DNA from: Bacteroidales bacterium
Lineage (GTDB): Bacteria > Bacteroidota > Bacteroidia > Bacteroidales > UBA1556
Direction: 5' to 3'
DNA length: 42,401 nt
NCBI GenBank assembly: GCA_029932765.1
Contig: JAOZPM010000005.1
Coordinates: 1-42,401 of the forward strand
Shown here piece by piece: positions 1-23,388 of this stretch. Every line of letters begins with the position of its first letter. The stretch's first letter is position 1. The position numbers were made by a program, and so were the translations under genes. A model generated the notes under the pieces. The model made no database searches, was not told the DNA's origin, and worked only from the letters and a program-made list of their open reading frames with translations.

Positions 1-262
1 ACTCTCGTGATGGCTTATTTATGTGACCCCTCTGGGGCTCCCTTCGACTTGCCTTATCAGGCCAACGCTCAGGATAAACTTCTCGCCCCAGAGGGCACAA
101 AAAAAGCCAACACTCTCGTGATGGCTTATTTATGTGACCCCTCTGGGGCTCCCTTCGACTTGCCTTATCAGGCCAACGCTCAGGATAAACTTCTCGCCCC
201 AGAGGGCACAAAAAAAGCCAACACTCTCGTGATGGCTTATTTATGTGACCCCTCTGGGGCTC
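1..262. repeat. Tandem direct repeat with a 111-bp period. There are two perfect full units (1-111, 112-222) and a 40-bp partial third unit (223-262) that merges into tRNA-Lys. The array is truncated by the window edge.
   Basis: By eye the units are identical base for base. Each contains gtgacccctctggggctc, the last 17 nt of the tRNA-Lys gene read on the minus strand, plus a hairpin/T7 terminator. Confidence 0.9.
210..238 (-). terminator. Rho-independent terminator downstream of tRNA-Lys copy 1. An identical copy lies at 99-127 inside the repeat unit.
   Basis: The minus strand reads AAGCCA-N11-TGGCTT followed by T7. Confidence 0.55.
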
Positions 263-318
263 GAACCCAGGACCCTCTGCTTAAAAGGCAGATGCTCTAC
301 CAGCTGAGCTAAGAGATC
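246..318 (-). tRNA. tRNA-Lys, anticodon UUU
   Basis: The minus strand reads GATCTCTTAGCTCAGCTGGTAGAGCATCTGCCTTTTAAGCAGAGGGTCCTGGGTTCGAGCCCCAGAGGGGTCA. It folds as a cloverleaf with anticodon loop CTTTTAA, T-arm CTGGG-TTCGAGC-CCCAG and a 7-bp acceptor stem with G-U pairs. No CCA is encoded. Confidence 0.9.
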
Positions 319-380
319 ATTCTCATTTGTTTGAAGGTTAATTCTTGATTGTTTAGATCAAAAGAGAAATTCATCTCTTG

Positions 381-453
381 TGACCCCTCTGGGGCTCGAA
401 CCCAGGACCCTCTGCTTAAAAGGCAGATGCTCTACCAGCTGAGCTAAGAGATC
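381..453 (-). tRNA. tRNA-Lys, anticodon UUU (second, identical copy)
   Basis: The 73-nt sequence is identical to 246-318. On the minus strand it is followed by a short AAGAGA-N6-TCTCTT hairpin and T residues. Confidence 0.9.
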
Positions 454-2000: not shown

Positions 2001-4502
2001 TTAATAGAATAAACTACCTATCTGATATGCGGCAAATGCAGCAACCCATGCAATAGCTGTAGTATATACAATTTCAAAAATAGCATACTTCCATAAACCA
2101 GACTCTCTCTTGATAGCTGCAATAGTTGCTATACATGGGAAATAAAATAACACAAACAACAAGAATGCAAAAGCCACCGGTGGCGTATATATTTTCTGCC
2201 CTATTTTTGGCCCTGAAGTATATTCTGCAGCTTTAAGTTTTTCGCCTAGTGATTGTGTTCCCTTTGCTTCGGGGTCAGATTGATAAAGCACTCCCATAGT
2301 AGAAACTACAATTTCCTTAGCAGCAGCTCCTGTAATCAGACTTACTCCAATTTTCCAATCAAAACCAAGTGGACGAATTACTGGCTCAATAAAATGACCT
2401 AATTCACCAATATAAGAATTCTCTTGACGCTCACCCTCTTTCATAAGTGAAATCTTATGTGCAACTAACACTTTTGCTATTGCTATACTATCGGCACTTA
2501 TGCTATTGTCTTGCGTAGCTTTATGAAGCATTTCTATTTCAACTGCATCATAATCTTGCAAATAATCAACTTCTCTAGGGAAATAACCCAATGCCCAAAT
2601 AAGAATAGAAGCAATAAGAATTATTCCTCCCATCTTCTTAAGATACATTTCAGCCTTAAACCACATATGCTTAACAATTGTTAGAGCTGTAGGTACACGG
2701 TATGGAGGCAATTCCATTACAAAAGGCAATTCCTTAGCTTTAAACAATGTTTTCTTGAAAATCCATGCTACAATTCCTGCCATCATAATTCCTAATGAAT
2801 AAATAAAGAAAAGCATTGTACCAGGGTATTGGGGAAAGAACGCACTAATAATTACCACATATACGGGTAATCTTGCACTACACGACATAAATGGATTAAT
2901 AAGCATTGTTACCAACCTATCGTTTCTTCCTTCGATGGTACGAGTTGCCATAATAGCAGGCACATTACACCCAAAGCCCATTAGTAATGGAATAAATGAG
3001 CGGCCATGTAATCCTACTTTATGCATTATTTTATCAACAATAAAAGCCACACGAGCCATATAGCCAGTATCTTCCATTATGGAAATAAAGAAGAAAAGTA
3101 TAAGTATATTGGGTAAGAAACTAATAACACTTCCCACACCACCAATTATACCATCAACTAATAAATCTCTAAATATACTTGGCTGCATTAGATTAGAAAC
3201 AAAACTACTCAAAATACTTACTCCGGATTCTATCCATAATTGCGGATAACTACCAATAATAAAAGTAGTTTGAAACATTACCCACATTAGAAAAATAAAT
3301 AGAGGAAAACTATATAATCTATTAGTAATAATACTATCAACAGCATGTGTAACATCTCGTTTGCTGAATGTAGCTCCTACTTTATAAGTTTCTTTAAGTG
3401 CACCATAAATAAATCCATATTTAGCATCAGTAATTGCAGATTCCGCATTTTCTTTAAAATAGTTTTCAGCCCTATCCTGACGATCTTTTACAAGAAGCTT
3501 TATTTCTTCTTCATTTATTGTTTTCTGAATTTTAGATTTAGCATCAGCATCACCCTCAAGCAATTTAATTGCAAGAAAACGAGAAGATATTCTATCCGTT
3601 AAATCCCAATTACCAGACTGTTTAATAAGATCTTGAATTAGCTTAATAGATTTCTCTATGCACTTACCATAATTTATATGAATATGACGCTCTATTGGAT
3701 TTTTATTAAGGTATGACTCTATAACTAGATCAAAAAGCTCATCAATACCTTTTCTTTTAGCACCAACAGTACGCACCGATGGAATTCCTAACATTTGAGA
3801 AAGAAGCTTGTCGTCAAGCACATCTTTTCGTCTATCCATCTCATCGCTCATATTCAATGCCATAACTACCTTTACATCCATATCAATAAGCTGGGTAGTA
3901 AGGTATAAATTACGTTCAAGATTAGAAGAATCTATAACATTAATTATAACATCGGGCATTTCATCATGAATAAAATTACGAACATATAATTCTTCTGGCG
4001 AGTATGCTGTTAGTGAATATGTACCTGGCAAATCAACAATATTGATTTTATATCCGGCATGCTTAAAAATTGCTTCTTTGGAATCTACCGTTACACCGCT
4101 ATAATTACCAACATGCTCATTAAGACCCGATACAATATTAAAGATTGTAGTTTTACCACAGTTAGGATTTCCAACAAAAGCTACATTTAGCTCTTTAAGT
4201 TTTGTTGCACGACCCTTTAATTTGCTATCATCTTTTATTGTTCCTTTAAATACAAATTCTTCATTAACATGATCATTTTCAGACATCAACTCAATAAGAT
4301 TAGACTCTGAAACTCTTAATGAAACATCATAGCCCATCAAAGAATACTCAATAGGGTCTTGTAAGGGTGCTCTTCGAATAACCTCAATCTCTTTCCCCGC
4401 AATAAAACCCATCTCCATTATTCTTCGGCGAAAAGCACCTCGGCCTTTTACTTTAGAAATAATACCCTTTTCACCTTCATTAAGATCACTTAAATGTTTC
4501 AT
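2001..4502 (-). CDS. feoB: Ferrous iron transporter, FeoA-FeoB fusion
   Basis: The N-terminal ~75 aa form a FeoA-like SH3 domain (GEKGIISKVKGRGAFRRRIMEMGF). This is followed by the G-domain motifs GNPNCGKTT and DLPGTYS and a large polytopic permease domain. Confidence 0.93.
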   Translation of the reverse strand: MKHLSDLNEGEKGIISKVKGRGAFRRRIMEMGFIAGKEIEVIRRAPLQDPIEYSLMGYDVSLRVSESNLIELMSENDHVNEEFVFKGTIKDDSKLKGRATKLKELNVAFVGNPNCGKTTIFNIVSGLNEHVGNYSGVTVDSKEAIFKHAGYKINIVDLPGTYSLTAYSPEELYVRNFIHDEMPDVIINVIDSSNLERNLYLTTQLIDMDVKVVMALNMSDEMDRRKDVLDDKLLSQMLGIPSVRTVGAKRKGIDELFDLVIESYLNKNPIERHIHINYGKCIEKSIKLIQDLIKQSGNWDLTDRISSRFLAIKLLEGDADAKSKIQKTINEEEIKLLVKDRQDRAENYFKENAESAITDAKYGFIYGALKETYKVGATFSKRDVTHAVDSIITNRLYSFPLFIFLMWVMFQTTFIIGSYPQLWIESGVSILSSFVSNLMQPSIFRDLLVDGIIGGVGSVISFLPNILILFFFISIMEDTGYMARVAFIVDKIMHKVGLHGRSFIPLLMGFGCNVPAIMATRTIEGRNDRLVTMLINPFMSCSARLPVYVVIISAFFPQYPGTMLFFIYSLGIMMAGIVAWIFKKTLFKAKELPFVMELPPYRVPTALTIVKHMWFKAEMYLKKMGGIILIASILIWALGYFPREVDYLQDYDAVEIEMLHKATQDNSISADSIAIAKVLVAHKISLMKEGERQENSYIGELGHFIEPVIRPLGFDWKIGVSLITGAAAKEIVVSTMGVLYQSDPEAKGTQSLGEKLKAAEYTSGPKIGQKIYTPPVAFAFLLFVLFYFPCIATIAAIKRESGLWKYAIFEIVYTTAIAWVAAFAAYQIGSLFY

Positions 4503-6777: not shown

Positions 6778-7506
6778 CTATTTAAACCAGCCAAATATAA
6801 AACTTATTTCAGCAGTAGGCGAACTAAGTTTGCCTGTTTCAAATACATTGCTTTCAATTTTATTACTAGAGTTTAGGTAATTATATGATAACTCTGAATT
6901 ACTAACCCATTGGTAACCCAAACCAACTTTAAACTTCATCCAATTAGTTAGATTCATTTCTACATCTATTTGAGGAGTTATTACAAAAACTGGGCTCGAA
7001 ACATAAACATCATCATTATAATACTTACAATTATAGCTATTGCAAGATTGGTAATAATCGTAATGATCATAAAGAAGAATTGCACCTCCTCCAAACTTTG
7101 TGCTAAAACCAAAATGTATTGGTTTATCAGCCACAAAATTAACACCTACTATTAATCCCGTATGAAAAAATGTAGAAGCTTTCTCAATATTAGATGTTGA
7201 ATCTGATGAAAGGAAATCGTATTCAGGAGAACCAAATGAACCTCTACCATAGAATCCCACATAAAAACTTCTATTTAACAAAACAGCACCATCAAAGCCC
7301 GCTGCACCAGCTACTTTTCCATCTAATGATAATAAATTAAAACTAAAAGCACCAAACCCACTTATCTTAGTAATTGAATTATTATTACTAAATAATGTTT
7401 TATACTCTGTATTTGAGTTTTGAGAAACTGAAGAATCAGATTTCTGAGAAAACATAACAAAAGGTGTTCCCAATGCTAGTAATAATAATAGTAAGAATAT
7501 TTTCAT
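6778..7506 (-). CDS. Secreted outer-membrane beta-barrel-like protein
   Basis: It has a signal peptide (MKIFLLLLLLALGTPFVMFS), alternating aromatic/Gly-rich strands and an aromatic C-terminus (FIFGWFK). Confidence 0.55.
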   Translation of the reverse strand: MKIFLLLLLLALGTPFVMFSQKSDSSVSQNSNTEYKTLFSNNNSITKISGFGAFSFNLLSLDGKVAGAAGFDGAVLLNRSFYVGFYGRGSFGSPEYDFLSSDSTSNIEKASTFFHTGLIVGVNFVADKPIHFGFSTKFGGGAILLYDHYDYYQSCNSYNCKYYNDDVYVSSPVFVITPQIDVEMNLTNWMKFKVGLGYQWVSNSELSYNYLNSSNKIESNVFETGKLSSPTAEISFIFGWFK

Positions 7507-7777: not shown

Positions 7778-8167
7778 ATGAAAAAGTCAATCCGATTTTT
7801 CTTTATCATGCTTTTAAGTATTAGCTTATTCCAAATTAGCTGTACAAAAGAGGATGACAAAGCTGTAGTATTACCTACAGTTAGTACTAATAGTGTAACA
7901 AACATTGCACCTACAACAGTAACAACTGGCGGGGTAATTAGTGATAATGTAGAAATTACTGCTAGGGGTGTTTGTTACTCAACATCCAATCAAAATCCTT
8001 CTCTAGAAGATGATGATGGTTTCACCACTGATGGTACTGGTGATGGAAGCTTTGTTAGTAACCCTTCGGGACTATTAAACGGAACAACATATTATATTAG
8101 AGCATACGCTACAAATACTATAGGAACAGCATATGGAAATATGGTTACATGCAAAACCATGCAATAA
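7778..8167 (+). CDS. Small lipoprotein with one Bacteroidota surface-protein repeat domain
   Basis: It has a signal peptide and lipobox (LFQISC). The motif ARGVCYSTS...TTYYIRAYATNTIGTAYG is a repeat module common in Bacteroidota cell-surface proteins. Confidence 0.6.
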   Translation: MKKSIRFFFIMLLSISLFQISCTKEDDKAVVLPTVSTNSVTNIAPTTVTTGGVISDNVEITARGVCYSTSNQNPSLEDDDGFTTDGTGDGSFVSNPSGLLNGTTYYIRAYATNTIGTAYGNMVTCKTMQ

Positions 8168-8913: not shown

Positions 8914-11900
8914 ATGGCAGGAGCTAAAAAGTTTGGAACATTTGCAGGAGTTTATACACCATCGGTACTTACAATACTAGGTGTAATAATGTATATGCGA
9001 CTCGGTTGGGTTGTAGGGCAAGCTGGGTTAATTGCGGCTATTGCAATTGTATTATTAGCACATATTATTTCCATAACTACAAGCTTAAGCATATCAAGTA
9101 TAGCTACCGACAAAAAGATAAAAACTGGTGGAATATACTATATACTATCACGAAGCCTTGGCCTACCAATGGGAGGTTCTATTGGCATAACTCTATTTGT
9201 TGGTACAGCATTAAGTATTGCATTATACATTGTAGGTTTTACCGAAAATTTCATTAGTATTGATACTATTAGCAGTTTCCTAGGAGTGGAAGACAGCATA
9301 AACACCATAAGAATAATTGGAACTATTGTACTTATGATTCTAGTTGCAATTGCATTTATTAGCACTTCTTTAGCAATAAAAACTCAGTTTTTTGTTTTAG
9401 GAGCAATAGCACTTTCCTTAATTTCTATTGGGCTAGGATTTGCCATGATGGACACATCTGCAATTACAGAACCAATAATGAGTCCTGCAAGAACAGGAGT
9501 GCCATTAATAACTGTATTTGCCATTTTCTTCCCTGCCGTTACAGGTTTTACAGCTGGAGTTGCTATGTCGGGCGATTTAAAAGACCCCAAAAGCTCTATT
9601 CCTAAAGGTACAATGTGGGCTGTTGCAACAGGACTAGTTGTTTATATAATACTAAGTATTGCTATAGCGTATTTTGTAGACAGAGATCTATTATTAAATG
9701 ACAATAACTTTTTTCTAAAGGTAGCATTATACTCACCACTAGTAATAGCTGGAATTTGGGGAGCTACACTATCATCTGCTTTAGGAGGAATCCTAGGAGC
9801 ACCACGTATTATACAAGCAATATCAGGGGACAAAATAATACCTAAGTGGTTTGGAAAAGGTCATGGCGAATCCAACGAACCTCGTAATGCACTTATTTTT
9901 ACATTCATTATTGCTGAAATTGGAATTTTAATTGGAGAACTAGATGCAATTGCTGAAGTTGTATCTATGTTTTATATTGCTGCTTATGGCTTTATAAATC
10001 TAGCTTTTGCTCTCGAAAGTTGGGCAAGTAGCGATTTTAGACCAAGTTTTGCTGTAAATAAATGGGTTGGAATTATTGGTTTTGTAGCCAGTTTTGGTGT
10101 TATGATGCAATTGAATCCAGGAGCAATGTTTGCAGCATTTATAATAATGTGGGCAATATATTTCCTTCTAAAAAGAAAAGAAATAAAGTCGGACTTTGGC
10201 GATGTTTGGAGCAGTGTATGGTCATCAATGGTAAGAACTTCGATTACTAAACTTGCAGAAAAATCACTTGAAAAACGTAATTGGAAACCTAATATACTAT
10301 TATTCATTGGTGAAAATGACCAACGACCTCATTTAATGGAACTTGGCAAACTATTTATTGGAAAGTATGGTTTTTTATCAGCATTTAATTTAATAGAGAA
10401 TGATAGCAATACTTTTAGCTTAACCAAGCATGAACAGTCTATTGACACTTCGCAAAACACCGATGGAGTATTTATCCGTAAGCATAACGTTAATAATATA
10501 TATGACGGAATAGAACAAGTATCATCAACTTATGGTTTTGCTGGAGTGGAACCAAATACTATATATATGGGGTGGGCTCGAAACACTAAAGACCCTATCC
10601 GTTTTGCTCATATGCTAAAAAATATTTATTCTCTTGATCAGAATATTGTTTTAATGGATTATGACCAACAACTTAAGTATGGTGATAAAAAACAAATTGA
10701 TATTTGGTGGAGAGGTAAAGGACAGAATGGAAATTTATCGTTACAATTAATTAAATTTCTACAAGAAAATGATGATTGGGCAAAATCCAAATTACGACTA
10801 ATGGTCGTAAATCCCGTTAATGACGATCATGAAAAACTATTTAAACAAGCAACAAGTATTCTTAATAATTTGAGAATTGATGGTGAGGTGCGAATCATTA
10901 ATAACCAAATAGAGAACCGTAGCTTTTATGACATTATTAATGTTGAGTCGATAAATTCTAGTTTAATTTTCTTGGGCTTACCTGATATAGAAATAGGCAA
11001 AGAGAAAAGCTTTATTGACAATACTAATGATTTATGTAAAAAAATTGGTACAGTAATATTGGTAAGAGCTTCTTCTACATTTATGCATTTAGAAATTGGT
11101 GGCAGAAAGAAAAAGGAAAACTCTAATTTAAAAAAGATATTAAAAACAAATAAGGAAAATAGAGCAGCTCTTAATTATCCAAAATACAAAGCTCTTGAGC
11201 TTGCTAATATGGATTTTTTCAATAAGAGCATGAATAATCTTGAGAGTATAAAAGAAACCTCTTTATATAAGTTTATTAGTGCTGAAAACAAACTATTCAC
11301 CGAATTTGATAGCATAATTAAAGAGTCAATAACGAATCTAAAAATAGAACTTGAAAAGAGTAAGCCCGAGTATTATTCTGCAAAGATATCGGCAATACAC
11401 ACAAAAACTCTTACTAAAATAAACGATTATCTTAATAGTAATAAAAAACTAATTAAAGAGAAGGAGCAATACATTACAGACCTTCTAGAAAAAGAAATTA
11501 GCTTTATCAAAATGCTTTATAAAGCTTTGCCAAAAACCATAAAGATAAAATACGGAATAGAGGATATTCAAATTGATCCCAACGATAGCTTTGATATAAA
11601 AACCTATAAATGGATTAGACGTAAGTTAGTTTTAATTGGAAAAAAAGAATTTTCTTATACTATTAAATATCAGCACTTACTAACCGAAAAATTATTAAGT
11701 ACAAATATCGAATTTATTGAAGATATACTTCATAAGTTTGGATATATGAGTAGTGAGAATATTACTGATGTAGAAATATTTACATCAAATATAGATAAGG
11801 AATTTCTTAACCTATATTTATCGGCTAGTAAGGATCAAAAAATTGATATTAAACAAATAGATAAAATAGAAAAACTTAATACTGATTTAATAAATAAAGT

Positions 11901-14046
11901 AAATAGTAGAATTACTAAATTTGTAAAGTATAGAGAAAATATAATTTATACACTTACAAATAAACTTAATGAGATTAGCTCTATTACTGATGTAAATAGT
12001 ACAATAGATGATGATTTTAATATTAGCAAGCACATTAATAATATAGACAAATCTCTTGATTTATATACTGAGAAGAGATTTCATAATAATATAATATTAA
12101 TAAATAGAGTTCAATTAAACATAACTCTACTAAGCTTTGCTGCACAATTACGACAATTTACAAAGCTAATTCTAAGGAGAGTAAGTGTAAGTCTAGAGAA
12201 AGATATTACAAATAATGATAAATCCTATTTAGAGTACTTAAAGCTTTATAGGAATGAGTTTGATAAAAATAATGATGCTAGTTTCAATTTTGAGAGTGAA
12301 AAGCTATCAGTTAATTTTGATCAAAGTTCAGCAAAAAGCCTTATCAATCTTATAGATAGATCACAAAAGAATATTCTTGAATTATTACCAGATTCAATGG
12401 AGATTTTTTCTGAAGAATCAGAGAATATGATCGGCACTAAAAAACAGTTTAATGATTTAGAAATTATAAATATTTCTGTAACACGCTTAATTGATTTTAT
12501 AATACAAGATGAATTTATAAATAAGATTAGCACTATTATTTCTAGCCTTCCTGAACAAATAACTACTAAATCGCATTTCTTACTCGACCACTTACGCTAT
12601 ATGTCGTATTGTGTAGAACACAAAGAAACTGTGGAGGAAGACTTCCGAACTTTTATTAATAATGAGATTTCTAAGATTGAGAATAACAATAATACAAATG
12701 ATGAATTTGTAAACAGCATTCTATTACAAATAGAGGAACGTCAGCGAATTCTTAATGAAAAGACATCTATTTATCCATTTGTATTAGCAGCTACTAATCT
12801 TAAGCAATATATTAAACAAAGAGAAAATTCTATTAGCAAGAATAAATTATCACAGTTAATAAGTCGCACAAATAATTTATTACGAAGTATTGCTGCTAAT
12901 ATATGGTATCAAGAGAGTGAGGGCATTATTTTAGCAAAGAATCTTATTAATGATTCTGACAAAGTTTACGATAATAATAGTAAACAGCGCAAAGCTATTG
13001 ATAAGATTAAAGCACCCATAGAAGTTTCTAATAATCTACCATATTATTACCAACAATTATTCACTAATAGGCAGAATTATATTCCTGAATTCTGGATAAA
13101 ACGAGAAGCTGCAGAATTAGAATTTGATAACTTTGTTAAGGATAAGAAATACAATCTTGCAAAAGCATTACTTATAAAAGGAGCTCCTGGCTCAGGAAAA
13201 ACTCACCTAAGTTATCATTTTACCCAACTATTGCCAAGCAGTAATAATGTAATTACAATTACACCTCCTATTGGTGGCAGTATTAATATGGATATTTATA
13301 ATAATATTATACAACAAGCTTTCAATAATATTTCTGATTTTGACAAACTTGAAGATGATACTGTAATAATATTTGAAGATATTGAATTGTGGTGGCAAAA
13401 AAGTAATAATGGCTTTGAGGTATTCGATTCTATTTTTAATTCCATTGATAAGCATTCCAACAGACTTACTTTTATTGTTATAATAAATAGTTATACCTAT
13501 TCCATAATTGAGAAATTACGAGATTTAAAACGTATATTTTCTCATATTATAAGCTTGAGTATAGTAGATGCACGAAGTATAGAAAAGATGATATGGAGTC
13601 GTCACCTTTCTGGTGGACTAAAAATTAGTTTGGGTAATAAGTCCGAAGACAGTTTTCACACTTGGGATTTTGCTCGCTTATTTAGCAAATACTTTAAGAG
13701 TTCGCATGGCTTTATAAATACTGCTATGTACAATTGGATTAATAATATTATTGAAATTGAAGATAAGAATATAAAAATTCGTAAACCTGAATCTTTAAGC
13801 ATTAATTTATTTAATAGTTTAAATGATAATGAGTTATGGGTACTGCAATCATTTATTATTCATAAACAAGTAAATACTGCCAAATTATCAAAAATAACAG
13901 ATTTGGAATCAAGTTTTATTAATAGAAAATTAATAGAAATGTTACGAATAGGAATTATTGAAGAAAAAGGAAAGGACATTTATGAATTAAGTCCTCTTCT
14001 TACACCAATGATAATTCAGTTACTTAAATCTAAGAAATACTTATAA
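8914..14046 (+). CDS. Chimeric 1710-aa protein. It consists of an SLC12-type cation-chloride cotransporter (permease plus SLC12 C-terminal domain, aa 1-~730), a ~660-aa N/K/I-rich helical region, and a P-loop ATPase plus winged helix (aa ~1393-1710).
   Basis: - TM1 signature: KFGTFAGVYTPSVLTILGVIMYMRLGWVVGQAGL.
- SLC12 C-terminal-domain pattern: NWKPNILLF, IDIWWRGKGQNGNLSLQLIKFL, KLRLMVV, LIFLGLPD.
- ATPase motifs: FWIKREAAELEF, then Walker A GAPGSGKT (nt 13180-13203) and Walker B VIIFEDIE (nt 13363-13386).
- C-terminal wHTH-like segment: LWVLQSFIIHKQVNTAKLSKITDLESSFINRKLIEMLRIGIIEE.
- The frame is uninterrupted for 5.1 kb in stop-codon-rich AT-rich DNA. Confidence 0.8.
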   Translation: MAGAKKFGTFAGVYTPSVLTILGVIMYMRLGWVVGQAGLIAAIAIVLLAHIISITTSLSISSIATDKKIKTGGIYYILSRSLGLPMGGSIGITLFVGTALSIALYIVGFTENFISIDTISSFLGVEDSINTIRIIGTIVLMILVAIAFISTSLAIKTQFFVLGAIALSLISIGLGFAMMDTSAITEPIMSPARTGVPLITVFAIFFPAVTGFTAGVAMSGDLKDPKSSIPKGTMWAVATGLVVYIILSIAIAYFVDRDLLLNDNNFFLKVALYSPLVIAGIWGATLSSALGGILGAPRIIQAISGDKIIPKWFGKGHGESNEPRNALIFTFIIAEIGILIGELDAIAEVVSMFYIAAYGFINLAFALESWASSDFRPSFAVNKWVGIIGFVASFGVMMQLNPGAMFAAFIIMWAIYFLLKRKEIKSDFGDVWSSVWSSMVRTSITKLAEKSLEKRNWKPNILLFIGENDQRPHLMELGKLFIGKYGFLSAFNLIENDSNTFSLTKHEQSIDTSQNTDGVFIRKHNVNNIYDGIEQVSSTYGFAGVEPNTIYMGWARNTKDPIRFAHMLKNIYSLDQNIVLMDYDQQLKYGDKKQIDIWWRGKGQNGNLSLQLIKFLQENDDWAKSKLRLMVVNPVNDDHEKLFKQATSILNNLRIDGEVRIINNQIENRSFYDIINVESINSSLIFLGLPDIEIGKEKSFIDNTNDLCKKIGTVILVRASSTFMHLEIGGRKKKENSNLKKILKTNKENRAALNYPKYKALELANMDFFNKSMNNLESIKETSLYKFISAENKLFTEFDSIIKESITNLKIELEKSKPEYYSAKISAIHTKTLTKINDYLNSNKKLIKEKEQYITDLLEKEISFIKMLYKALPKTIKIKYGIEDIQIDPNDSFDIKTYKWIRRKLVLIGKKEFSYTIKYQHLLTEKLLSTNIEFIEDILHKFGYMSSENITDVEIFTSNIDKEFLNLYLSASKDQKIDIKQIDKIEKLNTDLINKVNSRITKFVKYRENIIYTLTNKLNEISSITDVNSTIDDDFNISKHINNIDKSLDLYTEKRFHNNIILINRVQLNITLLSFAAQLRQFTKLILRRVSVSLEKDITNNDKSYLEYLKLYRNEFDKNNDASFNFESEKLSVNFDQSSAKSLINLIDRSQKNILELLPDSMEIFSEESENMIGTKKQFNDLEIINISVTRLIDFIIQDEFINKISTIISSLPEQITTKSHFLLDHLRYMSYCVEHKETVEEDFRTFINNEISKIENNNNTNDEFVNSILLQIEERQRILNEKTSIYPFVLAATNLKQYIKQRENSISKNKLSQLISRTNNLLRSIAANIWYQESEGIILAKNLINDSDKVYDNNSKQRKAIDKIKAPIEVSNNLPYYYQQLFTNRQNYIPEFWIKREAAELEFDNFVKDKKYNLAKALLIKGAPGSGKTHLSYHFTQLLPSSNNVITITPPIGGSINMDIYNNIIQQAFNNISDFDKLEDDTVIIFEDIELWWQKSNNGFEVFDSIFNSIDKHSNRLTFIVIINSYTYSIIEKLRDLKRIFSHIISLSIVDARSIEKMIWSRHLSGGLKISLGNKSEDSFHTWDFARLFSKYFKSSHGFINTAMYNWINNIIEIEDKNIKIRKPESLSINLFNSLNDNELWVLQSFIIHKQVNTAKLSKITDLESSFINRKLIEMLRIGIIEEKGKDIYELSPLLTPMIIQLLKSKKYL

Positions 14047-14786
14047 TGCAGGATCTAACCAAACATATATCCGCATTTCCATTTATAGGATTTGTATTAG
14101 GTGGCATTATCTTATATATGATTTTGCGCATTATACAAATTGTGCTTATTAGGTTTATTGAAAATTCCAAAATCATTTCAAAGATAAATAGAGTTTACAG
14201 TATTATTGAGCTCTTTATTGGCGAATTATATATTCTATGGACAATACCCTATTTTCTGAAAAATAGCCCAAGTATTGGAATCGTACTAAGCATAATCCTG
14301 ATTACATCTATAGGGTTAATTTTTTGGTATGCAGGTAGAGATTTTATTTCAGGCTTTATTATTAAGTCTAACTCTGGATTCAGAATTAATTCTAGGATTA
14401 AGACCAATGATATTGAAGGTGTTATTATTAATTTTTATGCAAGAAATCTTAAATTAATAAACGATAAAGGCGAAAAAATAATTATACCATACTCTACTTT
14501 GATAAACAAAGATATTCTTGTTAAGAACCGTAATAAAACTCGCATTTCAAAGCATATTACTCTTAAAATTAATAATGTTGACAATTATAACACTCTAATA
14601 AAGGATTTACGTTTTATGATAATGATGCATCCAAAATCATTAGTAAACATTGCTCCTACTATATCCATATTATCGCATAAGAAAGGCGTTTGTAATGTAG
14701 AGATTGATATTACAGCAAGAGACAATAATGGTCTTACTGATATAGAAACCTACCTAAAGAAAGAGCTTAAAAACCAAAAAGTATAA
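14046..14786 (+). CDS. Small MscS-family mechanosensitive channel-like protein
   Basis: 246 aa with 3-4 N-terminal TM helices. The pore-helix-like AGRDFISGFII is followed by a beta-domain pattern (IKTNDIEGVIINFYARNLKLINDKGEKIIIPYSTLINKDILVKN). Its ATG overlaps the upstream TAA (TAATG). Confidence 0.7.
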   Translation: MQDLTKHISAFPFIGFVLGGIILYMILRIIQIVLIRFIENSKIISKINRVYSIIELFIGELYILWTIPYFLKNSPSIGIVLSIILITSIGLIFWYAGRDFISGFIIKSNSGFRINSRIKTNDIEGVIINFYARNLKLINDKGEKIIIPYSTLINKDILVKNRNKTRISKHITLKINNVDNYNTLIKDLRFMIMMHPKSLVNIAPTISILSHKKGVCNVEIDITARDNNGLTDIETYLKKELKNQKV

Positions 14787-14847: not shown

Positions 14848-15405
14848 CTAATCAATTGTAATATGAGTCCAGTTTTCACCTTTTTCAATTCGCTTCAATT
14901 GTGTTAATGTAATTCCAAATTCACGAGCTATATGCACATAAATAGGTTTTTTACCGTCTTTAGTACCATCACGCAGTTTAATTTTAAGATTTCTAACATC
15001 TTCTTCTGTTAATTTAGAATTCTTAATCTTCTTTTGGTGATAATCTGGATCAGCCTTTCGATGAGCATACATGCCATCATTATCGCGCCAAGCAAGGTTC
15101 TCAAAGTAATTATTACTCCTATTATAATCTTGATGAATTACGTATGTTTCATCTTTACTTGGTGTATCAAGGAAATAATCAGCAACAATTTTATGAACAA
15201 AATATGTACGTTTTTTCTCGCTTTTTAATTTAATAACTAAAATATTGTAACCAGTTAGGAAGGAACCTTTAATAATTTTTCCACCCTTTCTACTAGTTCT
15301 AAAACTTTTTATTTGTCCATAATTTGAAATCTCAAACTTCTCATCAGGATGAATTTCTGAATAATCAAGCTTCACCCATTTTTCTTCTGCTCTACTCTTT
15401 TCCAT
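14848..15405 (-). CDS. Free-standing NUMOD4/HNH (HNH_3-type) homing-endonuclease-like protein with a C-terminal HTH
   Basis: It has a NUMOD4-like ISNYGQIKS motif, an HNH core (VHKIVADYF...VIHQDYNRSNNYFENLAW) and a C-terminal HTH-like IAREFGITLTQLKRIEKGENW segment. Confidence 0.75.
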   Translation of the reverse strand: MEKSRAEEKWVKLDYSEIHPDEKFEISNYGQIKSFRTSRKGGKIIKGSFLTGYNILVIKLKSEKKRTYFVHKIVADYFLDTPSKDETYVIHQDYNRSNNYFENLAWRDNDGMYAHRKADPDYHQKKIKNSKLTEEDVRNLKIKLRDGTKDGKKPIYVHIAREFGITLTQLKRIEKGENWTHITID

Positions 15406-20726: not shown

Positions 20727-22508
20727 GTGAAGCAATACATCAAACAATTACGCCGTAGGTTATATATATATCGCATACGATATATTAGTCCAAAGAATTT
20801 TATTATGATTCTTAGTGCTTTAGTTGGTCTATTGGCTGGATTAGCAGCTGTAGCAATTAAGAATGCTGTTCACTATACTCAATATTTAGTAGAAACAATA
20901 GTAACAACATTTCAGCTTAAATTTCTATACTTTTTACTCCCTATTATAGGAATTGGGCTTACAATAATTTTCATAAAATACGTATTAAAAAGACCTGTTG
21001 GTCATGGTATTCCATCTGTACTTTATGCCCTTTCTAAAACCAATGGAAAGATAAGAAGCAACAATATGTTTTCTTCAATTATAACAAGTGCTCTTACAGT
21101 AGGATTTGGAGGATCGGTTGGGCTAGAGGGTCCTACTGTATCTACTGGTGCTGCTTTTGGATCTAATATAGGAATAGCTTTACGACTTAATTACAAACAA
21201 CTTATTATACTTTTGGGAGCAGCAACGGCAGCAGCAATGGCCGCTATTTTTAAAGCACCTATTGCAGCAGTAGTTTTTGCATTGGAGGTAATAATGATTG
21301 ACCTTACTGTTGCATCAGTAGTACCCTTGCTAATTGCCTCAGCAACGGCAGCCTTAACATCTATGTTTTTTCTTGGAGTAGGAACAATATACCCTGTACA
21401 GATTATTGAGTCATATAAATTAGCAGAATTACCCTACTACATTTTATTGGGAGTATTCTCTGGCCTATTAGCAGTATATTTCACAAGAGTATATATGTTT
21501 ATTACAGAAACCTTTGACGCAATGGAAAGTGTTTGGAAAAGGCTATTTATTGGTGGTGCTTTATTGGGTTTAATAATTTTCTTTTTCCCTTCCTTATATG
21601 GTGAGGGTTTCGAAGGTATTAACGCTGCTTTAGCAGGAAATACAGAACATGTGTTCTTCAACACATTCTACAGTAATTTAGATGATAATTTTCTATATAC
21701 AATTGGATTTATTATTTTAATCTTACTTTTTAAAGTAATAGCTACATCTCTTACTTTTGGCGCGGGTGGTGTAGGTGGAATTTTTGCTCCTTCCCTATTC
21801 TTAGGTAGTAACTTAGGTCTTCTTTTTGCATATTTAGTAAATCATTTCAAACAGATTTCTATAAATAGTAGTCACTTTGCATTGGCAGGCATGGCTGGAC
21901 TAATTGCAGCTAATCTACATGCACCATTAACAGCAATTTTCCTTATTGGGGACCTTACTGGTGGCTATCAAATGTTAATTCCATTAATGATTGTAAGCGT
22001 AGTGGCTTATTCCACTGTAAAAATCTTTCAATCTAATTCGGTATATACAATTCAGCTTGCAAAACGTGGAGAACTTCGCACCCACAACCCTGATACTAAC
22101 ATTTTAGGTATGATGACTATAAATAAGGTTATTGAACGTAATTTCTATACTGTAAATAGGAATCAAACTTTGGGTCAATTAGTAATGGTAATTGCAAAAT
22201 CTCAAAGAAATATTTTTCCTGTTGTAGATATGGATAATAATTTTGAAGGAGTTATTGCTATGGATAACGTTCGTGAAATTATGTTTAATACAGAGTTATA
22301 CGAAACAACATTTGTTTCTGACCTCATGTATTGTAATATTGAGGTGATAAATATGAATGACACTATGAATAATATTGCTGAGAAATTTCATAAATCATCA
22401 AATTACAATATCCCTGTAGTTGACAATGGCAAATATGTTGGATTTGTATCAAGAGCAAACGTATTTTCTACCTATCGAAAGATGTTGAAATATTTTGCTG
22501 AAGATTAG
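20727..22508 (+). CDS. ClC-family chloride channel/antiporter with a C-terminal CBS pair
   Basis: The ClC motifs GGSVGLEGP and GGVGGIFAPS are present, with two CBS-like repeats at the C-terminus. The start at 20727 is GTG, and an alternative ATG lies at 20805. Confidence 0.88.
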   Translation: MKQYIKQLRRRLYIYRIRYISPKNFIMILSALVGLLAGLAAVAIKNAVHYTQYLVETIVTTFQLKFLYFLLPIIGIGLTIIFIKYVLKRPVGHGIPSVLYALSKTNGKIRSNNMFSSIITSALTVGFGGSVGLEGPTVSTGAAFGSNIGIALRLNYKQLIILLGAATAAAMAAIFKAPIAAVVFALEVIMIDLTVASVVPLLIASATAALTSMFFLGVGTIYPVQIIESYKLAELPYYILLGVFSGLLAVYFTRVYMFITETFDAMESVWKRLFIGGALLGLIIFFFPSLYGEGFEGINAALAGNTEHVFFNTFYSNLDDNFLYTIGFIILILLFKVIATSLTFGAGGVGGIFAPSLFLGSNLGLLFAYLVNHFKQISINSSHFALAGMAGLIAANLHAPLTAIFLIGDLTGGYQMLIPLMIVSVVAYSTVKIFQSNSVYTIQLAKRGELRTHNPDTNILGMMTINKVIERNFYTVNRNQTLGQLVMVIAKSQRNIFPVVDMDNNFEGVIAMDNVREIMFNTELYETTFVSDLMYCNIEVINMNDTMNNIAEKFHKSSNYNIPVVDNGKYVGFVSRANVFSTYRKMLKYFAED

Positions 22509-22626: not shown

Positions 22627-23388
22627 ATGAGATTAACGTTTTTGGGCACCGGAACCTCACAAGGCATACCTGTAATAGGCTGCAAATGTGCTATCTGCCA
22701 AAGCGATAATGAAAAAGATAAACGACTAAGGAGCTCTGTTTTAATAGAAAATGAAGATGATATTTTCACAATTGACGCAGGCCCAGATTTCAGACAACAG
22801 TTATTAAAACAAAATACAGATAAGCTTTCTGCTGTACTAATCACTCATGGACATAAAGATCATATTGGTGGACTCGACGACATAAGAGCCTTTAACTACC
22901 TACAAAAAGAACCAATGAATATATGGGCAGATAAGTCTGCTATTGATAGCATAAAAAAGGAATTCCATTATGCATTTGCCAAAAAAAGAAATCCCGGACT
23001 TCCTAGTTTCAACCTCAAGGAAATAACGGAAGAGAAAATAATTATTGGCAACACAACAATAACACCCATAGCATTATTGCACCATAAACTAAGCGTTAAA
23101 GCTTTTAGATTAAATGACTTAACATATATTACTGATGCTAATTTTATCCCTAAAGAATCCTATGAATTGCTCAAAGGCACAAAGATTCTCATAATAAATG
23201 CATTACGTAAGGAGAAGCATATTTCTCATTTTAATTTAGAAGAAGCTTTAGAAGTAATAAAGAAAGTAAATCCAAATAAGGCATATATTACACATATTAG
23301 TCATTTAATGGGTACTCATAATGAGACAAGTATAGAACTACCAAATAATGTGAGTTTTGCTTATGATGGTTTAAGAATTGAATTCTAA
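22627..23388 (+). CDS. MBL-fold metallo-hydrolase (PhnP/GPMS-like)
   Basis: It has the HxHxDH motif ITHGHKDHIGG and an N-terminal CxxC (IGCKCAIC). Confidence 0.85.
   Translation: MRLTFLGTGTSQGIPVIGCKCAICQSDNEKDKRLRSSVLIENEDDIFTIDAGPDFRQQLLKQNTDKLSAVLITHGHKDHIGGLDDIRAFNYLQKEPMNIWADKSAIDSIKKEFHYAFAKKRNPGLPSFNLKEITEEKIIIGNTTITPIALLHHKLSVKAFRLNDLTYITDANFIPKESYELLKGTKILIINALRKEKHISHFNLEEALEVIKKVNPNKAYITHISHLMGTHNETSIELPNNVSFAYDGLRIEF

What the first reader, a model, noticed from the sequence alone, without database searches (positions are those of the whole stretch)
8914..14046. 1710-aa chimera: a complete SLC12-type cation-chloride cotransporter fused to a ~980-aa cytoplasmic tail ending in a P-loop ATPase and a winged helix
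**Seen.**
- One frame stays open for 5.1 kb in AT-rich DNA, where all overlapping ORFs in other frames are shorter than 110 aa.
- aa 1-~450 form a polytopic permease with the SLC12 TM1 signature KFGTFAGVYTPSVLTILGVIMYMRLGWVVGQAGL.
- aa ~454-730 show the SLC12 C-terminal-domain pattern (NWKPNILLF, IDIWWRGKGQNGNLSLQLIKFL, KLRLMVV, LIFLGLPD).
- The prokaryotic CCC homologues I know of end at about that length. This ORF continues for ~980 more residues.

**Established.** The CCC C-terminus is cytoplasmic, so the tail should be cytoplasmic too.

**Inference.** An ion transporter appears to be hard-wired to an NTP-driven switch and a possible DNA-binding module. Two readings are possible:
- The tail is a built-in regulator of K+/Na+/Cl- uptake.
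- The protein is a 'transceptor' that reports ion or osmotic status.

A ClC chloride channel lies 6.7 kb downstream, so chloride handling is locally over-represented. I cannot verify novelty without a database search.
Basis: partly seen in the sequence, partly recalled or inferred. Interest (0 to 1): 0.8.

Follow-up and report, generated by a model that had tools for sequence, protein, structure and literature searches.

The report
Salt transporter fused to AAA+ switch
The 1,710-residue protein is real: it is one member of a widespread but unstudied bacterial family in which an NKCC-type salt transporter carries a long helical domain and an Orc/Cdc6-like AAA+ ATPase, and is almost always encoded with a small MscS-type mechanosensitive channel, which points to a self-contained osmotic-regulation unit.

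Summary
Window 8914..14046 (+) is one 1,710-aa ORF with four parts:
- an SLC12 transmembrane domain, aa 1-450
- an SLC12 C-terminal domain, aa 451-730
- an all-helical domain of about 590 aa with no Pfam match
- an AAA+ base, lid and winged helix, aa ~1396-1710. The AlphaFold model has pLDDT 84, and Foldseek's best matches are Orc/Cdc6, RuvB and RFC.

It is neither an artefact nor a one-off. An exhaustive profile search found 1,284 representative clusters. One motif pattern found 199 species genomes in Bacteroidota, Calditrichota and Myxococcota, including cultured Enhygromyxa salina and Plesiocystis pacifica. In 80 loci, 64 carry the intact fusion.

1. The same parts occur as separate adjacent genes elsewhere (L004, L089), so this is a gene fusion.
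2. A ~245-aa MscS-like channel gene follows on the same strand in 68 of 76 informative loci (median gap 9 nt). It overlaps the fusion's stop by 1 nt in the window.
3. CCC-less helical/AAA+ proteins also sit next to MscS genes.

The nearby ClC is local synteny only. DNA binding by the winged helix is unsupported.

Databases call the family "amino acid permease", and I found no paper on it. The likeliest role is an ATP-switched salt-uptake and release module. That mechanism is inferred.

The parts
8914..14046 (+). Whole gene: a 1,710-aa fusion of CCC, helical domain and AAA+/winged helix.
   Evidence: ORF listing. Colinear with four close relatives. Colinear with 64 intact fusions of 1,692-1,832 aa in species genomes.
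8914..10263 (+). SLC12/APC-fold transmembrane domain (aa 1-450), closest to NKCC1.
   Evidence: AA_permease E 2e-46 and TIGR00930 at 401 bits. NKCC1 chains are the best PDB hits for the TMD alone. Nine hydrophobic stretches found by hydropathy, several long enough for two helices. Ligand residues: Na+ S287, S288 and A284; K+ Y105, T210 and P207; Cl- Y358. These are kept in 94-96 of 96 fused proteins.
10264..11103 (+). SLC12 cytoplasmic C-terminal domain (aa 451-730).
   Evidence: Pfam SLC12 PF03522 scores 30.5 bits against a cut-off of 27. Aligns to KCC C-terminal domains up to about aa 707. About 78% identical among close relatives.
11104..12738 (+). Middle ('MID') domain (aa 731-1275): all-helical, about 30% charged, Gly/Pro-poor, with no Pfam or PDB sequence match.
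   Evidence: No Pfam hit in the window protein or in five diverse members. No PDB hit with the tail profile. Predicted as long helices, but the model is low-confidence. Length IQR across 96 fused proteins is 583-600 aa, measured on slices that include about 30 flanking residues. A family profile hits all 28 CCC relatives of 1,000 aa or more, E 1e-11 to 1e-80.
12739..13098 (+). Helical lead-in to the ATPase (aa 1276-1395), containing the family motif LPYYYQQLF (aa 1375-1383, nt 13036-13062).
   Evidence: The start of homology to the stand-alone 447-aa protein of L004 falls here, at about aa 1281. The motif LPfYYxQLF is conserved across 134 modules.
13099..13563 (+). AAA+ alpha/beta P-loop base (aa ~1396-1550). 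Walker A is GAPGSGKT (aa 1423-1430, nt 13180-13203). The Walker B-like motif is D1489-I-E1491-LWW, within nt 13366-13404. The putative sensor-1 residue is N1525.
   Evidence: GK[ST] is kept in 125 of 135 modules and D-[LIM]-E-L-W-W-E is near-universal. Model core pLDDT is above 90. Foldseek matches Orc/Cdc6, RuvB and RFC at probability 1.00. Pfam P-loop hits are sub-threshold, with KAP_NTPase at 20.9 against a cut-off of 20.
13564..13788 (+). AAA+ helical lid (aa ~1551-1625) with invariant R1563-H1564 (nt 13600-13605) and the motif ARLFxxYFxxSxG.
   Evidence: Invariant columns in the 28- and 134-sequence alignments. Helices at 278-335 of the model.
13789..14043 (+). C-terminal winged-helix domain (aa ~1626-1710).
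   Evidence: Helix-helix-helix-hairpin topology in the model. The whole-module match to Orc/Cdc6 and RuvB includes their winged helices. Faint wHTH hits to Sta1 and Csa3. Net charge is +2 in the window and the family median is +1.
14046..14786 (+). Partner gene: a 246-aa, 3-TM MscS-family channel-like protein. Its ATG overlaps the fusion's stop codon by 1 nt.
   Evidence: MS_channel_2nd E 5e-8. Three hydrophobic segments. aa 73-200 align with the pore helix through the cytoplasmic domains of MSL1. Downstream on the same strand in 68 of 76 informative loci, median gap 9 nt. It is the only broadly recurrent neighbour.

Best explanation
**What it is (shown).** The gene encodes a member of a large, unnamed family of bacterial NKCC-type cation-chloride cotransporters. 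The canonical transporter (12-TM domain plus SLC12 C-terminal domain) is extended by a ~590-aa all-helical domain. It ends in an Orc/Cdc6-like AAA+ module made of a P-loop base, a lid and a winged helix. The protein is a Rosetta-stone fusion: in other genomes the CCC-plus-helical part and the AAA+ part are adjacent separate genes. It forms a two-gene operon with a small MscS-type channel.

**What it most likely does (inferred).** The pair is a self-contained osmotic or turgor-regulation unit. The CCC brings Na+/K+/Cl- in. The MscS-type channel lets solutes out. The helical-plus-AAA+ tail is a nucleotide-dependent switch, a slow ATP-binding and hydrolysis device and not a motor. It would set transporter activity and couple it to the channel according to cytoplasmic state, such as ATP/ADP or ionic strength.
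For: **Anatomy.**

**Family size and spread.**
- 1,284 representative clusters have E at or below 1e-3.
- 96 of the best 150 are full fusions.
- One motif pattern finds 199 species genomes in three phyla.

**Fusion and fission.**
- The L004 447-aa gene aligns end to end with window aa ~1281-1710 (E 3e-54).
- L089 has the same three-gene layout.

**Link between the channel and the AAA+ module.**
- An MscS-like gene lies downstream in 68 of 76 informative loci, with a median gap of 9 nt.
- It is the only universal neighbour.
- CCC-less helical/AAA+ proteins are followed by MscS genes in L063 and L088.
- Among five CCC+MID contexts, the AAA+ and MscS genes are both present (L004, L089) or both absent (L005, L090, L091).

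**The transporter looks competent.** All side-chain ligands of the NKCC1 Na+, K+ and Cl- sites are kept in 94-96 of 96 fusions.

**The NTPase looks competent.**
- Walker A GK[ST] is kept in 125 of 135 modules.
- The D-x-E-LWW motif, a sensor-1-like Asn and an invariant R-H in the lid are conserved.

**Ecology.** The cultured hosts are halophilic marine myxobacteria.
Against: - No experiment exists for any family member.
- The role of the AAA+ module is inferred only from fusion and gene neighbourhood.
- No arginine is conserved at the usual arginine-finger position, so ring-type ATP hydrolysis is doubtful.
- Eight of 76 informative loci lack the MscS neighbour.
- A sizeable CCC+MID class has neither the AAA+ nor the MscS gene. 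The helical domain must therefore have a function of its own.
- The helical domain could not be modelled with confidence (pLDDT 46).
- The habitat link to salinity rests on record titles and two cultured genera, not on a test.
Confidence: 0.5

Rival explanations
1. **Transceptor or membrane-tethered regulator.** The winged helix binds DNA, as in Orc1/Cdc6, and the protein reports ion or osmotic status to transcription.
For: - The closest folds are DNA-binding AAA+ proteins whose winged helix contacts DNA.
- There are faint wHTH hits to Sta1 and Csa3.
Against: - The winged helix is about neutral in charge (family median +1).
- A winged helix is a structural tier of many AAA+/STAND modules that do not bind DNA (my own knowledge).
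- The conserved partner is a channel, not a regulon or an operator.
- The module sits behind a ~590-aa helical domain on a polytopic membrane protein.
Confidence: 0.1
2. **The helical/AAA+ module primarily serves the MscS-like channel**, for example in assembly, gating or inactivation control. Fusion to the CCC would be secondary co-localisation, so the tail is not a regulator of the transporter.
For: - CCC-less helical/AAA+ proteins are followed by MscS genes in L063 and L088.
- The AAA+ and MscS genes are present or absent together next to CCC+MID genes.
Against: - The helical domain occurs on CCCs that lack both the AAA+ and the MscS gene.
- The intact fusion to the CCC is the dominant form: 64 of 80 loci and 96 of the best 150 representatives.
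- L040 has a CCC-less helical/AAA+ gene with no adjacent MscS gene.
- L087 also shows no MscS gene next to such a protein, but its only neighbour was not identified and the contig is 4 kb.
Confidence: 0.2
3. **Anti-phage or abortive-infection system.** An AAA+/STAND-like sensor would trigger ion flux through membrane effectors to collapse the infected cell.
For: - Sub-threshold hits to AAA_16, nSTAND3 and BrxC_BrxD.
- Membrane P-loop defence proteins that alter ion content exist, for example Tmn (PMC13001434, listed).
- A homing-endonuclease-like gene lies next door.
Against: - No PADLOC model hits the tail or the channel beyond faint wHTH noise.
- The flanks are housekeeping genes: 5-FTHF cyclo-ligase, M16 peptidase, UvrB and MiaA.
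- The transmembrane domain is ~89% conserved and keeps intact substrate sites.
- There are no sensor repeats after the NTPase; the protein ends at the winged helix.
- Synteny is stable within lineages.
Confidence: 0.04
4. **Artefact.** Two or three genes were joined by an assembly or sequencing error.
For: - Split versions exist: L004, L089, L012, L017, L035, L046, L048 and L050.
Against: - 64 independent species genomes and four close relatives keep the uninterrupted frame.
- The tail shows purifying selection (46-71% amino-acid identity with conserved motifs).
- Several of the split cases are in long-read MAGs, judging by their names, and may themselves be frameshift errors. That is my inference.
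Confidence: 0.01

Closest known systems
Animal NKCC1 and the KCCs (SLC12A2, SLC12A4-7)
   Same: - Same transporter fold and same cytoplasmic SLC12 C-terminal domain.
- The NKCC1 side-chain ligands for Na+ (S613, S614), K+ (Y383, T499) and Cl- (Y686) are all conserved.
- By analogy, a role in cell-volume regulation.
   Different: - There is no long N-terminal regulatory region with WNK-SPAK/OSR1 phospho-sites; the protein starts 5 residues before the first residues that align with NKCC1's transmembrane region.
- About 980 extra C-terminal residues carry an AAA+ module that no characterised SLC12 protein has.
Canonical prokaryotic CCCs of about 734 aa, such as the Methanosarcina acetivorans CCC whose C-terminal domain was crystallised (Warmuth et al. 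2009, cited in PMC4301019)
   Same: The transmembrane domain plus C-terminal domain core is 55-62% identical to the ~734-aa Bacteroidota and Chlorobiota relatives.
   Different: Those proteins end after the C-terminal domain. This one continues with the helical domain and the AAA+/winged-helix module.
Orc1/Cdc6, RuvB and RFC-type AAA+ ATPases, and the archaeal Walker-type ATPase PAB2304 (PDB 1w5t, 1fnn, 2qby, 1in4, 2qen)
   Same: Three-tier architecture of base, lid and winged helix (Foldseek E 2e-9 to 1e-7, probability 1.00). A Walker A motif, an acidic Walker B motif and a polar sensor-1 residue are present.
   Different: - Sequence identity is only 10-16%.
- Walker B reads D-x-E-LWW instead of hhhhDE.
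- No arginine finger is conserved.
- The module is tethered to a membrane transporter.
- There is no evidence of DNA binding.
- TM-scores are only 0.3-0.5, so the domain arrangement differs.
Osmoregulatory transporters with cytoplasmic sensor or regulator extensions: ProP (C-terminal coiled coil), BetP (C-terminal helix), OpuA (CBS domains) and Trk/Ktr (RCK nucleotide-binding rings). This comparison comes from my own knowledge.
   Same: The concept is the same: a solute or ion uptake system whose activity is set by an attached cytoplasmic helical or nucleotide-binding domain.
   Different: None of them uses an AAA+ module or a ~590-aa helical domain, and none is an SLC12 transporter. This is an analogy only, and no homology was tested.
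MscS family channels (E. coli MscS, Arabidopsis MSL1), for the partner gene
   Same: PF00924 beta-domain, three TM helices, and alignment from the pore helix to the cytoplasmic domains.
   Different: - Very compact at ~245 aa.
- The pore-helix segment is rich in bulky residues instead of Gly and Ala, from my reading of the sequence.
- It is genetically coupled to a transporter/AAA+ protein, which is not described for MscS.

Membership tests
SLC12 / cation-chloride cotransporter (TC 2.A.30) | APC/LeuT-fold polytopic permease that matches CCC-specific models. | tested here: met
   AA_permease E 2e-46. TIGR00930 scores 401 bits, which is below its full-length equivalog cut-off of 953 because the model is built on eukaryotic proteins. 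The best PDB hits are all SLC12.
SLC12 / cation-chloride cotransporter (TC 2.A.30) | Cytoplasmic SLC12 C-terminal domain. | tested here: met
   PF03522 scores 30.5 bits against a gathering score of 27 on aa 451-730. Alignment to KCC C-terminal domains.
SLC12 / cation-chloride cotransporter (TC 2.A.30) | Conserved Na+, K+ and Cl- coordinating residues. | tested here: met
   S287, S288, A284, Y105, T210, P207 and Y358 correspond to the hNKCC1 sites defined in PMC9713717.
SLC12 / cation-chloride cotransporter (TC 2.A.30) | Electroneutral cation-coupled Cl- transport activity. | not testable with these tools
   Needs flux assays.
AAA+ ATPases (Orc/Cdc6-RuvB-RFC-like, Pfam AAA_16/AAA_22 neighbourhood) | Walker A P-loop GxxxxGK[ST]. 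| tested here: met
   GAPGSGKT at aa 1423-1430. GK[ST] is kept in 125 of 135 family modules.
AAA+ ATPases (Orc/Cdc6-RuvB-RFC-like, Pfam AAA_16/AAA_22 neighbourhood) | Walker B acidic residues after a hydrophobic strand. | tested here: met
   The window has VIIFED-I-E-LWW. D1489 and E1491 are conserved at 80% or more, in a variant D-x-E spacing.
AAA+ ATPases (Orc/Cdc6-RuvB-RFC-like, Pfam AAA_16/AAA_22 neighbourhood) | Alpha/beta base plus C-terminal helical lid, with a winged helix in the Orc/Cdc6/RuvB types. | tested here: met
   AlphaFold model with pLDDT 83.9. Foldseek probability 1.00 to 1w5t, 1fnn, 8efy, 2qen and 2qby.
AAA+ ATPases (Orc/Cdc6-RuvB-RFC-like, Pfam AAA_16/AAA_22 neighbourhood) | Arginine finger (box VII) for inter-subunit hydrolysis. 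| tested here: not met
   No residue reaches 50% conservation as Arg between the sensor-1 strand and beta5 in 134 modules. The invariant R1563-H1564 lies in the lid, at a sensor-2-like position.
AAA+ ATPases (Orc/Cdc6-RuvB-RFC-like, Pfam AAA_16/AAA_22 neighbourhood) | Passing a curated Pfam or NCBIfam AAA model. | tested here: inconclusive
   In the window protein, AAA, AAA_22 and AAA_16 are all below cut-off. AAA_22 passes in family member P0215, at 28 against 27.
KAP family P-loop NTPases | Transmembrane helices inserted in or after the P-loop domain, and a match to the PF07693 model. | tested here: not met
   PF07693 scores 20.9 against 20, and only on the isolated C-terminal 380 aa with partial model coverage of positions 14-115 of 293. 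There is no hydrophobic segment anywhere after aa 420.
STAND NTPases (NB-ARC, NACHT, Avs-like) | NTPase, helical domain and winged helix followed by C-terminal sensor repeats, and a match to a STAND model. | tested here: not met
   The protein ends at the winged helix with no repeats. nSTAND3 scores 18.1 against 27.2 and NPHP3_N 17 against 24.8. There is no PADLOC hit.
MscS family (partner gene 14046..14786) | Pore-lining TM3 followed by the beta-domain (PF00924) and the alpha-beta domain. | tested here: met
   PF00924 scores 33.3 bits against 20.2. Three TM segments. aa 73-200 align to MSL1. Channel activity is not testable here.

The most novel reading that the evidence does not exclude
The helical domain and the AAA+ module physically bridge the CCC dimer and the MscS-type oligomer into one transporter-channel supercomplex. 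ATP binding and hydrolysis would reciprocally switch salt uptake and solute release. This would be a bacterial, single-operon counterpart of animal cell-volume regulation, and the first AAA+-gated secondary transporter or mechanosensitive channel.
Probability: 0.2. Interest if true: 0.85.

Novelty: new variant of a known kind. Interest (0 to 1): 0.62.

Why it matters
**For CCC biology.** Cation-chloride cotransporters are medically central in animals, yet how they sense volume or ionic state is known only through eukaryotic kinase cascades. Prokaryotic CCCs are almost unstudied. This family shows that bacteria in at least three phyla solved regulation differently, by attaching an AAA+ nucleotide switch and pairing the transporter with a mechanosensitive-channel homologue.

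**For experiments.** The family gives a genetically compact system with cultured hosts (Enhygromyxa salina, Plesiocystis pacifica). It could be used to ask how salt uptake and release are coordinated, and what an Orc/Cdc6-like AAA+ module does at a membrane.

**For annotation.**
- Hundreds of proteins named 'amino acid permease' are NKCC-type transporters.
- They carry two unmodelled domains that deserve family definitions.
- The fusion and fission pattern is a textbook Rosetta-stone link between the AAA+ protein, the CCC and the MscS-like channel.

Tried and rejected
1. **Word-indexed homologue search with the tail.** It returned only four proteins and suggested rarity. The exhaustive profile search showed this was a sensitivity artefact.
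2. **AlphaFold on the whole 980-aa tail with four sequences.** pLDDT was 46, so the model is unusable. I did not run Foldseek on it.
3. **PDB sequence-profile search with the tail.** It gave 0 hits.
4. **Pfam on the middle region of the window and of five diverse members.** Nothing was found.
5. **Genome scan with the 28-sequence alignment.** It failed because no stretch was conserved enough. I repeated it with a motif-coherent subset.
6. **PADLOC defence models.** Only faint wHTH noise on the tail, so the defence reading was set aside.
7. **ClC as a functional partner.** Rejected, because no ClC cluster recurs among neighbours in the 80 loci.
8. **Other recurrent neighbours.**
   - A protein of about 1,100 aa plus a 130-aa lipoprotein-like gene upstream occur in 12-14 loci. 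These are lineage-specific synteny.
   - A cluster in Myxococcota consists of antisense ORFs in high-GC DNA and is an artefact.
9. **KAP and STAND membership.** Tested and not met; see the membership table.
10. **Literature searches.** Searches on bacterial CCC extensions, the accession numbers, and the MscS-CCC pairing found nothing relevant.
11. **A MAFFT run timed out.** It was repeated in fast mode.
Full report
**1.

Window 8914..14046 (+) is a single ATG-initiated ORF of 1,710 aa. The only overlapping ORFs of 80 aa or more in other frames are 83 and 107 aa. Local GC is 25-36%.

The evidence for each part:
- aa 14-461 match AA_permease (E 2e-46). The K-Cl cotransporter model TIGR00930 scores 401 bits.
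- aa 451-730 pass the gathering score of Pfam SLC12 (30.5 against 27). All significant PDB sequence hits are SLC12 chains, and the KCC alignments run to about aa 670-707.
- The remaining ~980 aa get only sub-threshold P-loop hits around aa 1416-1545. KAP_NTPase passes marginally (20.9 against 20) when the last 380 aa are scanned alone.

**2. It is not an artefact**

Four close relatives of 1,710-1,714 aa, from independent assemblies, align without gaps across both junctions. Identity falls in steps:

| Region | Identity among close relatives |
|---|---|
| TMD | ~89% |
| CCC C-terminal domain | ~78% |
| Middle region | 46-67% |
| P-loop module | ~70% |
| Winged helix | ~66% |

This is the pattern of a translated tail under purifying selection. 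The stored cluster representative differs from the window protein at only three residues.

**3. It is not rare**

The word-indexed search had suggested rarity. An exhaustive HMM search with the tail profile overturned that:
- It found 1,284 representative clusters (50% identity) at E at or below 1e-3, and 357 at or below 1e-30.
- Of the best 150, 96 are full fusions of about 1,670-1,830 aa. Most of the rest are fragments.
- A scan of one genome per GTDB species with the single peptide pattern [DEH]DLELWWE found 199 species with a confirmed relative.
- Those species span Bacteroidota (Bacteroidales, Marinilabiliales, Prolixibacteraceae, Lentimicrobiaceae, Rikenellaceae, Sphingobacteriia), Calditrichota and Myxococcota.
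- The Myxococcota include the cultured Enhygromyxa salina (three strains) and Plesiocystis pacifica SIR-1.

In the 80 loci returned:
- 64 carry an intact 1,692-1,832-aa fusion.
- 9 are cut by contig ends.
- 7 are split or lack the CCC.

Two caveats apply. Both searches favour full-length or motif-bearing members, so the true ratio of fused to split forms is uncertain. My ORF caller takes the longest ORF, which over-extends starts in high-GC Myxococcota.

**4. Three tiers and a gene fusion**

The closest relatives of the CCC half fall into length classes. A family-wide profile of the middle region hits all 28 relatives of 1,000 aa or more (E 1e-11 to 1e-80). The series is:

| Tier | Architecture | Length |
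|---|---|---|
| 1 | CCC | ~734 aa |
| 2 | CCC + MID | ~1,200-1,270 aa |
| 3 | CCC + MID + AAA+ | ~1,700-1,830 aa |

In L004, a 1,270-aa CCC+MID gene is followed by a separate 447-aa gene with no Pfam hit. That gene aligns end to end with window aa ~1281-1710 (E 3e-54, 24% identity). An MscS-like gene homologous to window 14046..14786 comes next (E 8e-14). L089 repeats this three-gene layout. The window protein is therefore a Rosetta-stone fusion of neighbouring genes.

Three other CCC+MID genes (L005, L090, L091) have neither the AAA+ gene nor the MscS gene next to them.

**5. The conserved partner**

The gene whose ATG overlaps the fusion's stop (14046..14786) has these features:
- It encodes a 246-aa protein with three hydrophobic segments.
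- It carries the MscS beta-domain (PF00924, E 5e-8).
- aa 73-200 align with the pore helix through the cytoplasmic domains of the MscS-like channel MSL1.

An MscS-like gene lies immediately downstream on the same strand in 68 of 76 informative loci, with a median gap of 9 nt. In an all-against-all clustering of neighbours it is the only broadly recurrent family: 64 loci fall in one cluster, all downstream. No ClC cluster recurs. The ClC at 20727..22508 is local synteny shared only with close relatives.

Soluble MID+AAA+ proteins without a CCC also exist, at 994-1,151 aa (L040, L063, P0187, P0181, P0190). Hydropathy shows no TM segment in three of them and a single isolated hydrophobic stretch in each of P0181 and P0190. 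Two of the four whose neighbours I looked at are followed by an MscS-family gene (L063 and L088).

**6. The C-terminal module is an AAA+ ATPase with a winged helix**

With a 28-sequence alignment, AlphaFold gave pLDDT 83.9 and pTM 0.75, and the core is above 90. Foldseek against the PDB gave probability 1.00 to these targets:
- archaeal ORC2 and Cdc6 (1w5t at E 2e-9, 1fnn, 2qby, 2v1u)
- RuvB
- RFC subunits
- the Walker-type ATPase PAB2304 (2qen)

TM-scores are only 0.3-0.5, so the tiers are arranged differently.

Across 134 modules that are 21-37% identical to the window, these motifs are conserved:
- LPfYYxQLF
- Walker A G[ED]xxSGK[TS], with GK[ST] kept in 125 of 135
- pPxxGS
- hhhh-x-D-[LIM]-E-L-W-W-E
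- an Asn at the end of the next strand, which looks like sensor 1
- an invariant R-H in the lid
- ARLFxxYFxxSxGNxG

No arginine is conserved at the usual arginine-finger position. I read this as a nucleotide-binding switch and not a ring motor; that is inference. The winged helix is about neutral in charge (family median +1).

**7. The middle domain**

- It has nearly constant length across 96 fusions. The IQR is 583-600 aa, measured on slices that include about 30 flanking residues.
- Sequence conservation is weak and mostly a hydrophobic pattern.
- In the window it is 1.8% Gly plus Pro and about 30% charged.
- It is predicted as long helices with two short hairpins, but only at low confidence.
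- It has no Pfam or PDB sequence match.
- Because it occurs on CCCs that lack the AAA+ module, it belongs functionally with the transporter.

**8. The transporter half looks active and NKCC-like**

The TMD alone matches NKCC1 best. I used the ion sites defined for human NKCC1 in PMC9713717 and the ungapped alignment. The side-chain ligands map as follows:

| NKCC1 residue | Window residue |
|---|---|
| S613, S614 (Na+) | S287, S288 |
| Y383, T499 (K+) | Y105, T210 |
| Y686 (Cl-) | Y358 |

The backbone-ligand positions A284 and P207 are also kept. These residues are conserved in 94-96 of 96 fusions and in all canonical relatives.

**9. Most likely mechanism**

Shown:
- The architecture.
- The fusion and fission pattern.
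- The operon with an MscS-type protein.
- Intact ion sites and nucleotide-binding motifs.

Inferred:
- The pair is an osmotic or turgor unit.
- The CCC imports Na+/K+/Cl- and the MscS-type channel releases solutes.
- The helical and AAA+ tail sets and couples their activities in response to nucleotide or ionic state.

The cultured hosts are halophilic marine myxobacteria, which fits but does not prove the reading.

Rivals:
- A DNA-binding transceptor is unlikely for the reasons given in sections 5 and 6.
- A module that serves mainly the MscS channel is plausible and partly overlaps my reading.
- An anti-phage system has no PADLOC support and sits in a housekeeping context.
- An artefact is excluded.

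**10. Comparison with what is known, and novelty**

The protein is a bona fide SLC12 member by every sequence criterion tested. Its tail is an AAA+ module by fold and Walker motifs, but it fails the arginine-finger test and the curated Pfam thresholds. It is not a KAP or STAND NTPase, because it has no inserted TM helices and no sensor repeats.

Public databases call family members 'amino acid permease', for example P. pacifica WP_006975026.1 / A6GE86. The partner gene is WP_006975025.1. I found no paper that describes the architecture or the pairing.

The sequences are therefore known, but the family, its two unmodelled domains and the MscS linkage are undescribed. I rate it a new variant of a known kind. 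It is of moderate to high interest and directly testable in cultured organisms.

Noticed in passing
window 14848..15405 (-): A free-standing 185-aa NUMOD4/HNH_3 protein sits convergent to the MscS-like gene. It matches a PADLOC 'homing endonuclease' model (E 2e-13). It is conserved at the same position in the close relatives L001-L003.
   Followed up: partly
window 27543..28856 (+): A stand-alone 437-aa ATPase_2 + DUF234 protein, also matching AAA_22 and AAA_14. This is the same 'archaeal Walker-type ATPase plus winged helix' class as PAB2304 (2qen), which was among the structural matches of the transporter's tail. I did not test any relation to the tail.
   Followed up: no
window 245..318 and 380..453 (-): Two tandem tRNA-Lys(TTT) genes lie 62 nt apart.
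   Followed up: no
window 2001..4502 (-): An 833-aa FeoA-FeoB fusion. A FeoA domain at aa 3-71 is joined to a complete FeoB.
   Followed up: no
window 20727..22508 (+): A ClC channel with a CBS domain. It is syntenic only in the close relatives and is not a recurrent neighbour of the family elsewhere.
   Followed up: yes
L063 11745..16282 (-): The same Calditrichia genome region that holds an intact CCC fusion plus MscS also encodes a CCC-less 1,056-aa helical/AAA+ paralogue. That paralogue is followed by a larger, 394-aa MscS-family gene with a low-complexity N-terminal region.
   Followed up: partly
L022 and L088 (both contigs of assembly JBDRNO01): In one MAG, the intact CCC fusion (L022) has no recognisable MscS gene after it. 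A CCC-less 1,151-aa helical/AAA+ protein on another contig (L088) is followed by an MscS gene. This looks like partner swapping between paralogues.
   Followed up: no
L040 1839..9317 (+): A CCC-less 994-aa helical/AAA+ protein lies directly downstream of two sensor histidine kinases and a response regulator (CHASE8-HAMP-HK; PAS-HK-REC; REC). No MscS gene is adjacent.
   Followed up: partly
window 22627..23388 (+), and the equivalent genes in L001 and L003: A 253-aa metallo-beta-lactamase-fold protein lies just upstream of the gene syntenic with the IPPT/MiaA-like gene of L001 and L003. In the relatives it also carries a precomputed hit to the Anti-Pycsar_Apyc1 family.
   Followed up: no
window 6778..7506 (-) and 7778..8167 (+): Two small signal-peptide proteins of 242 and 129 aa have no Pfam match. 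The 129-aa one is conserved two genes upstream of the fusion in L001 and L002.
   Followed up: no
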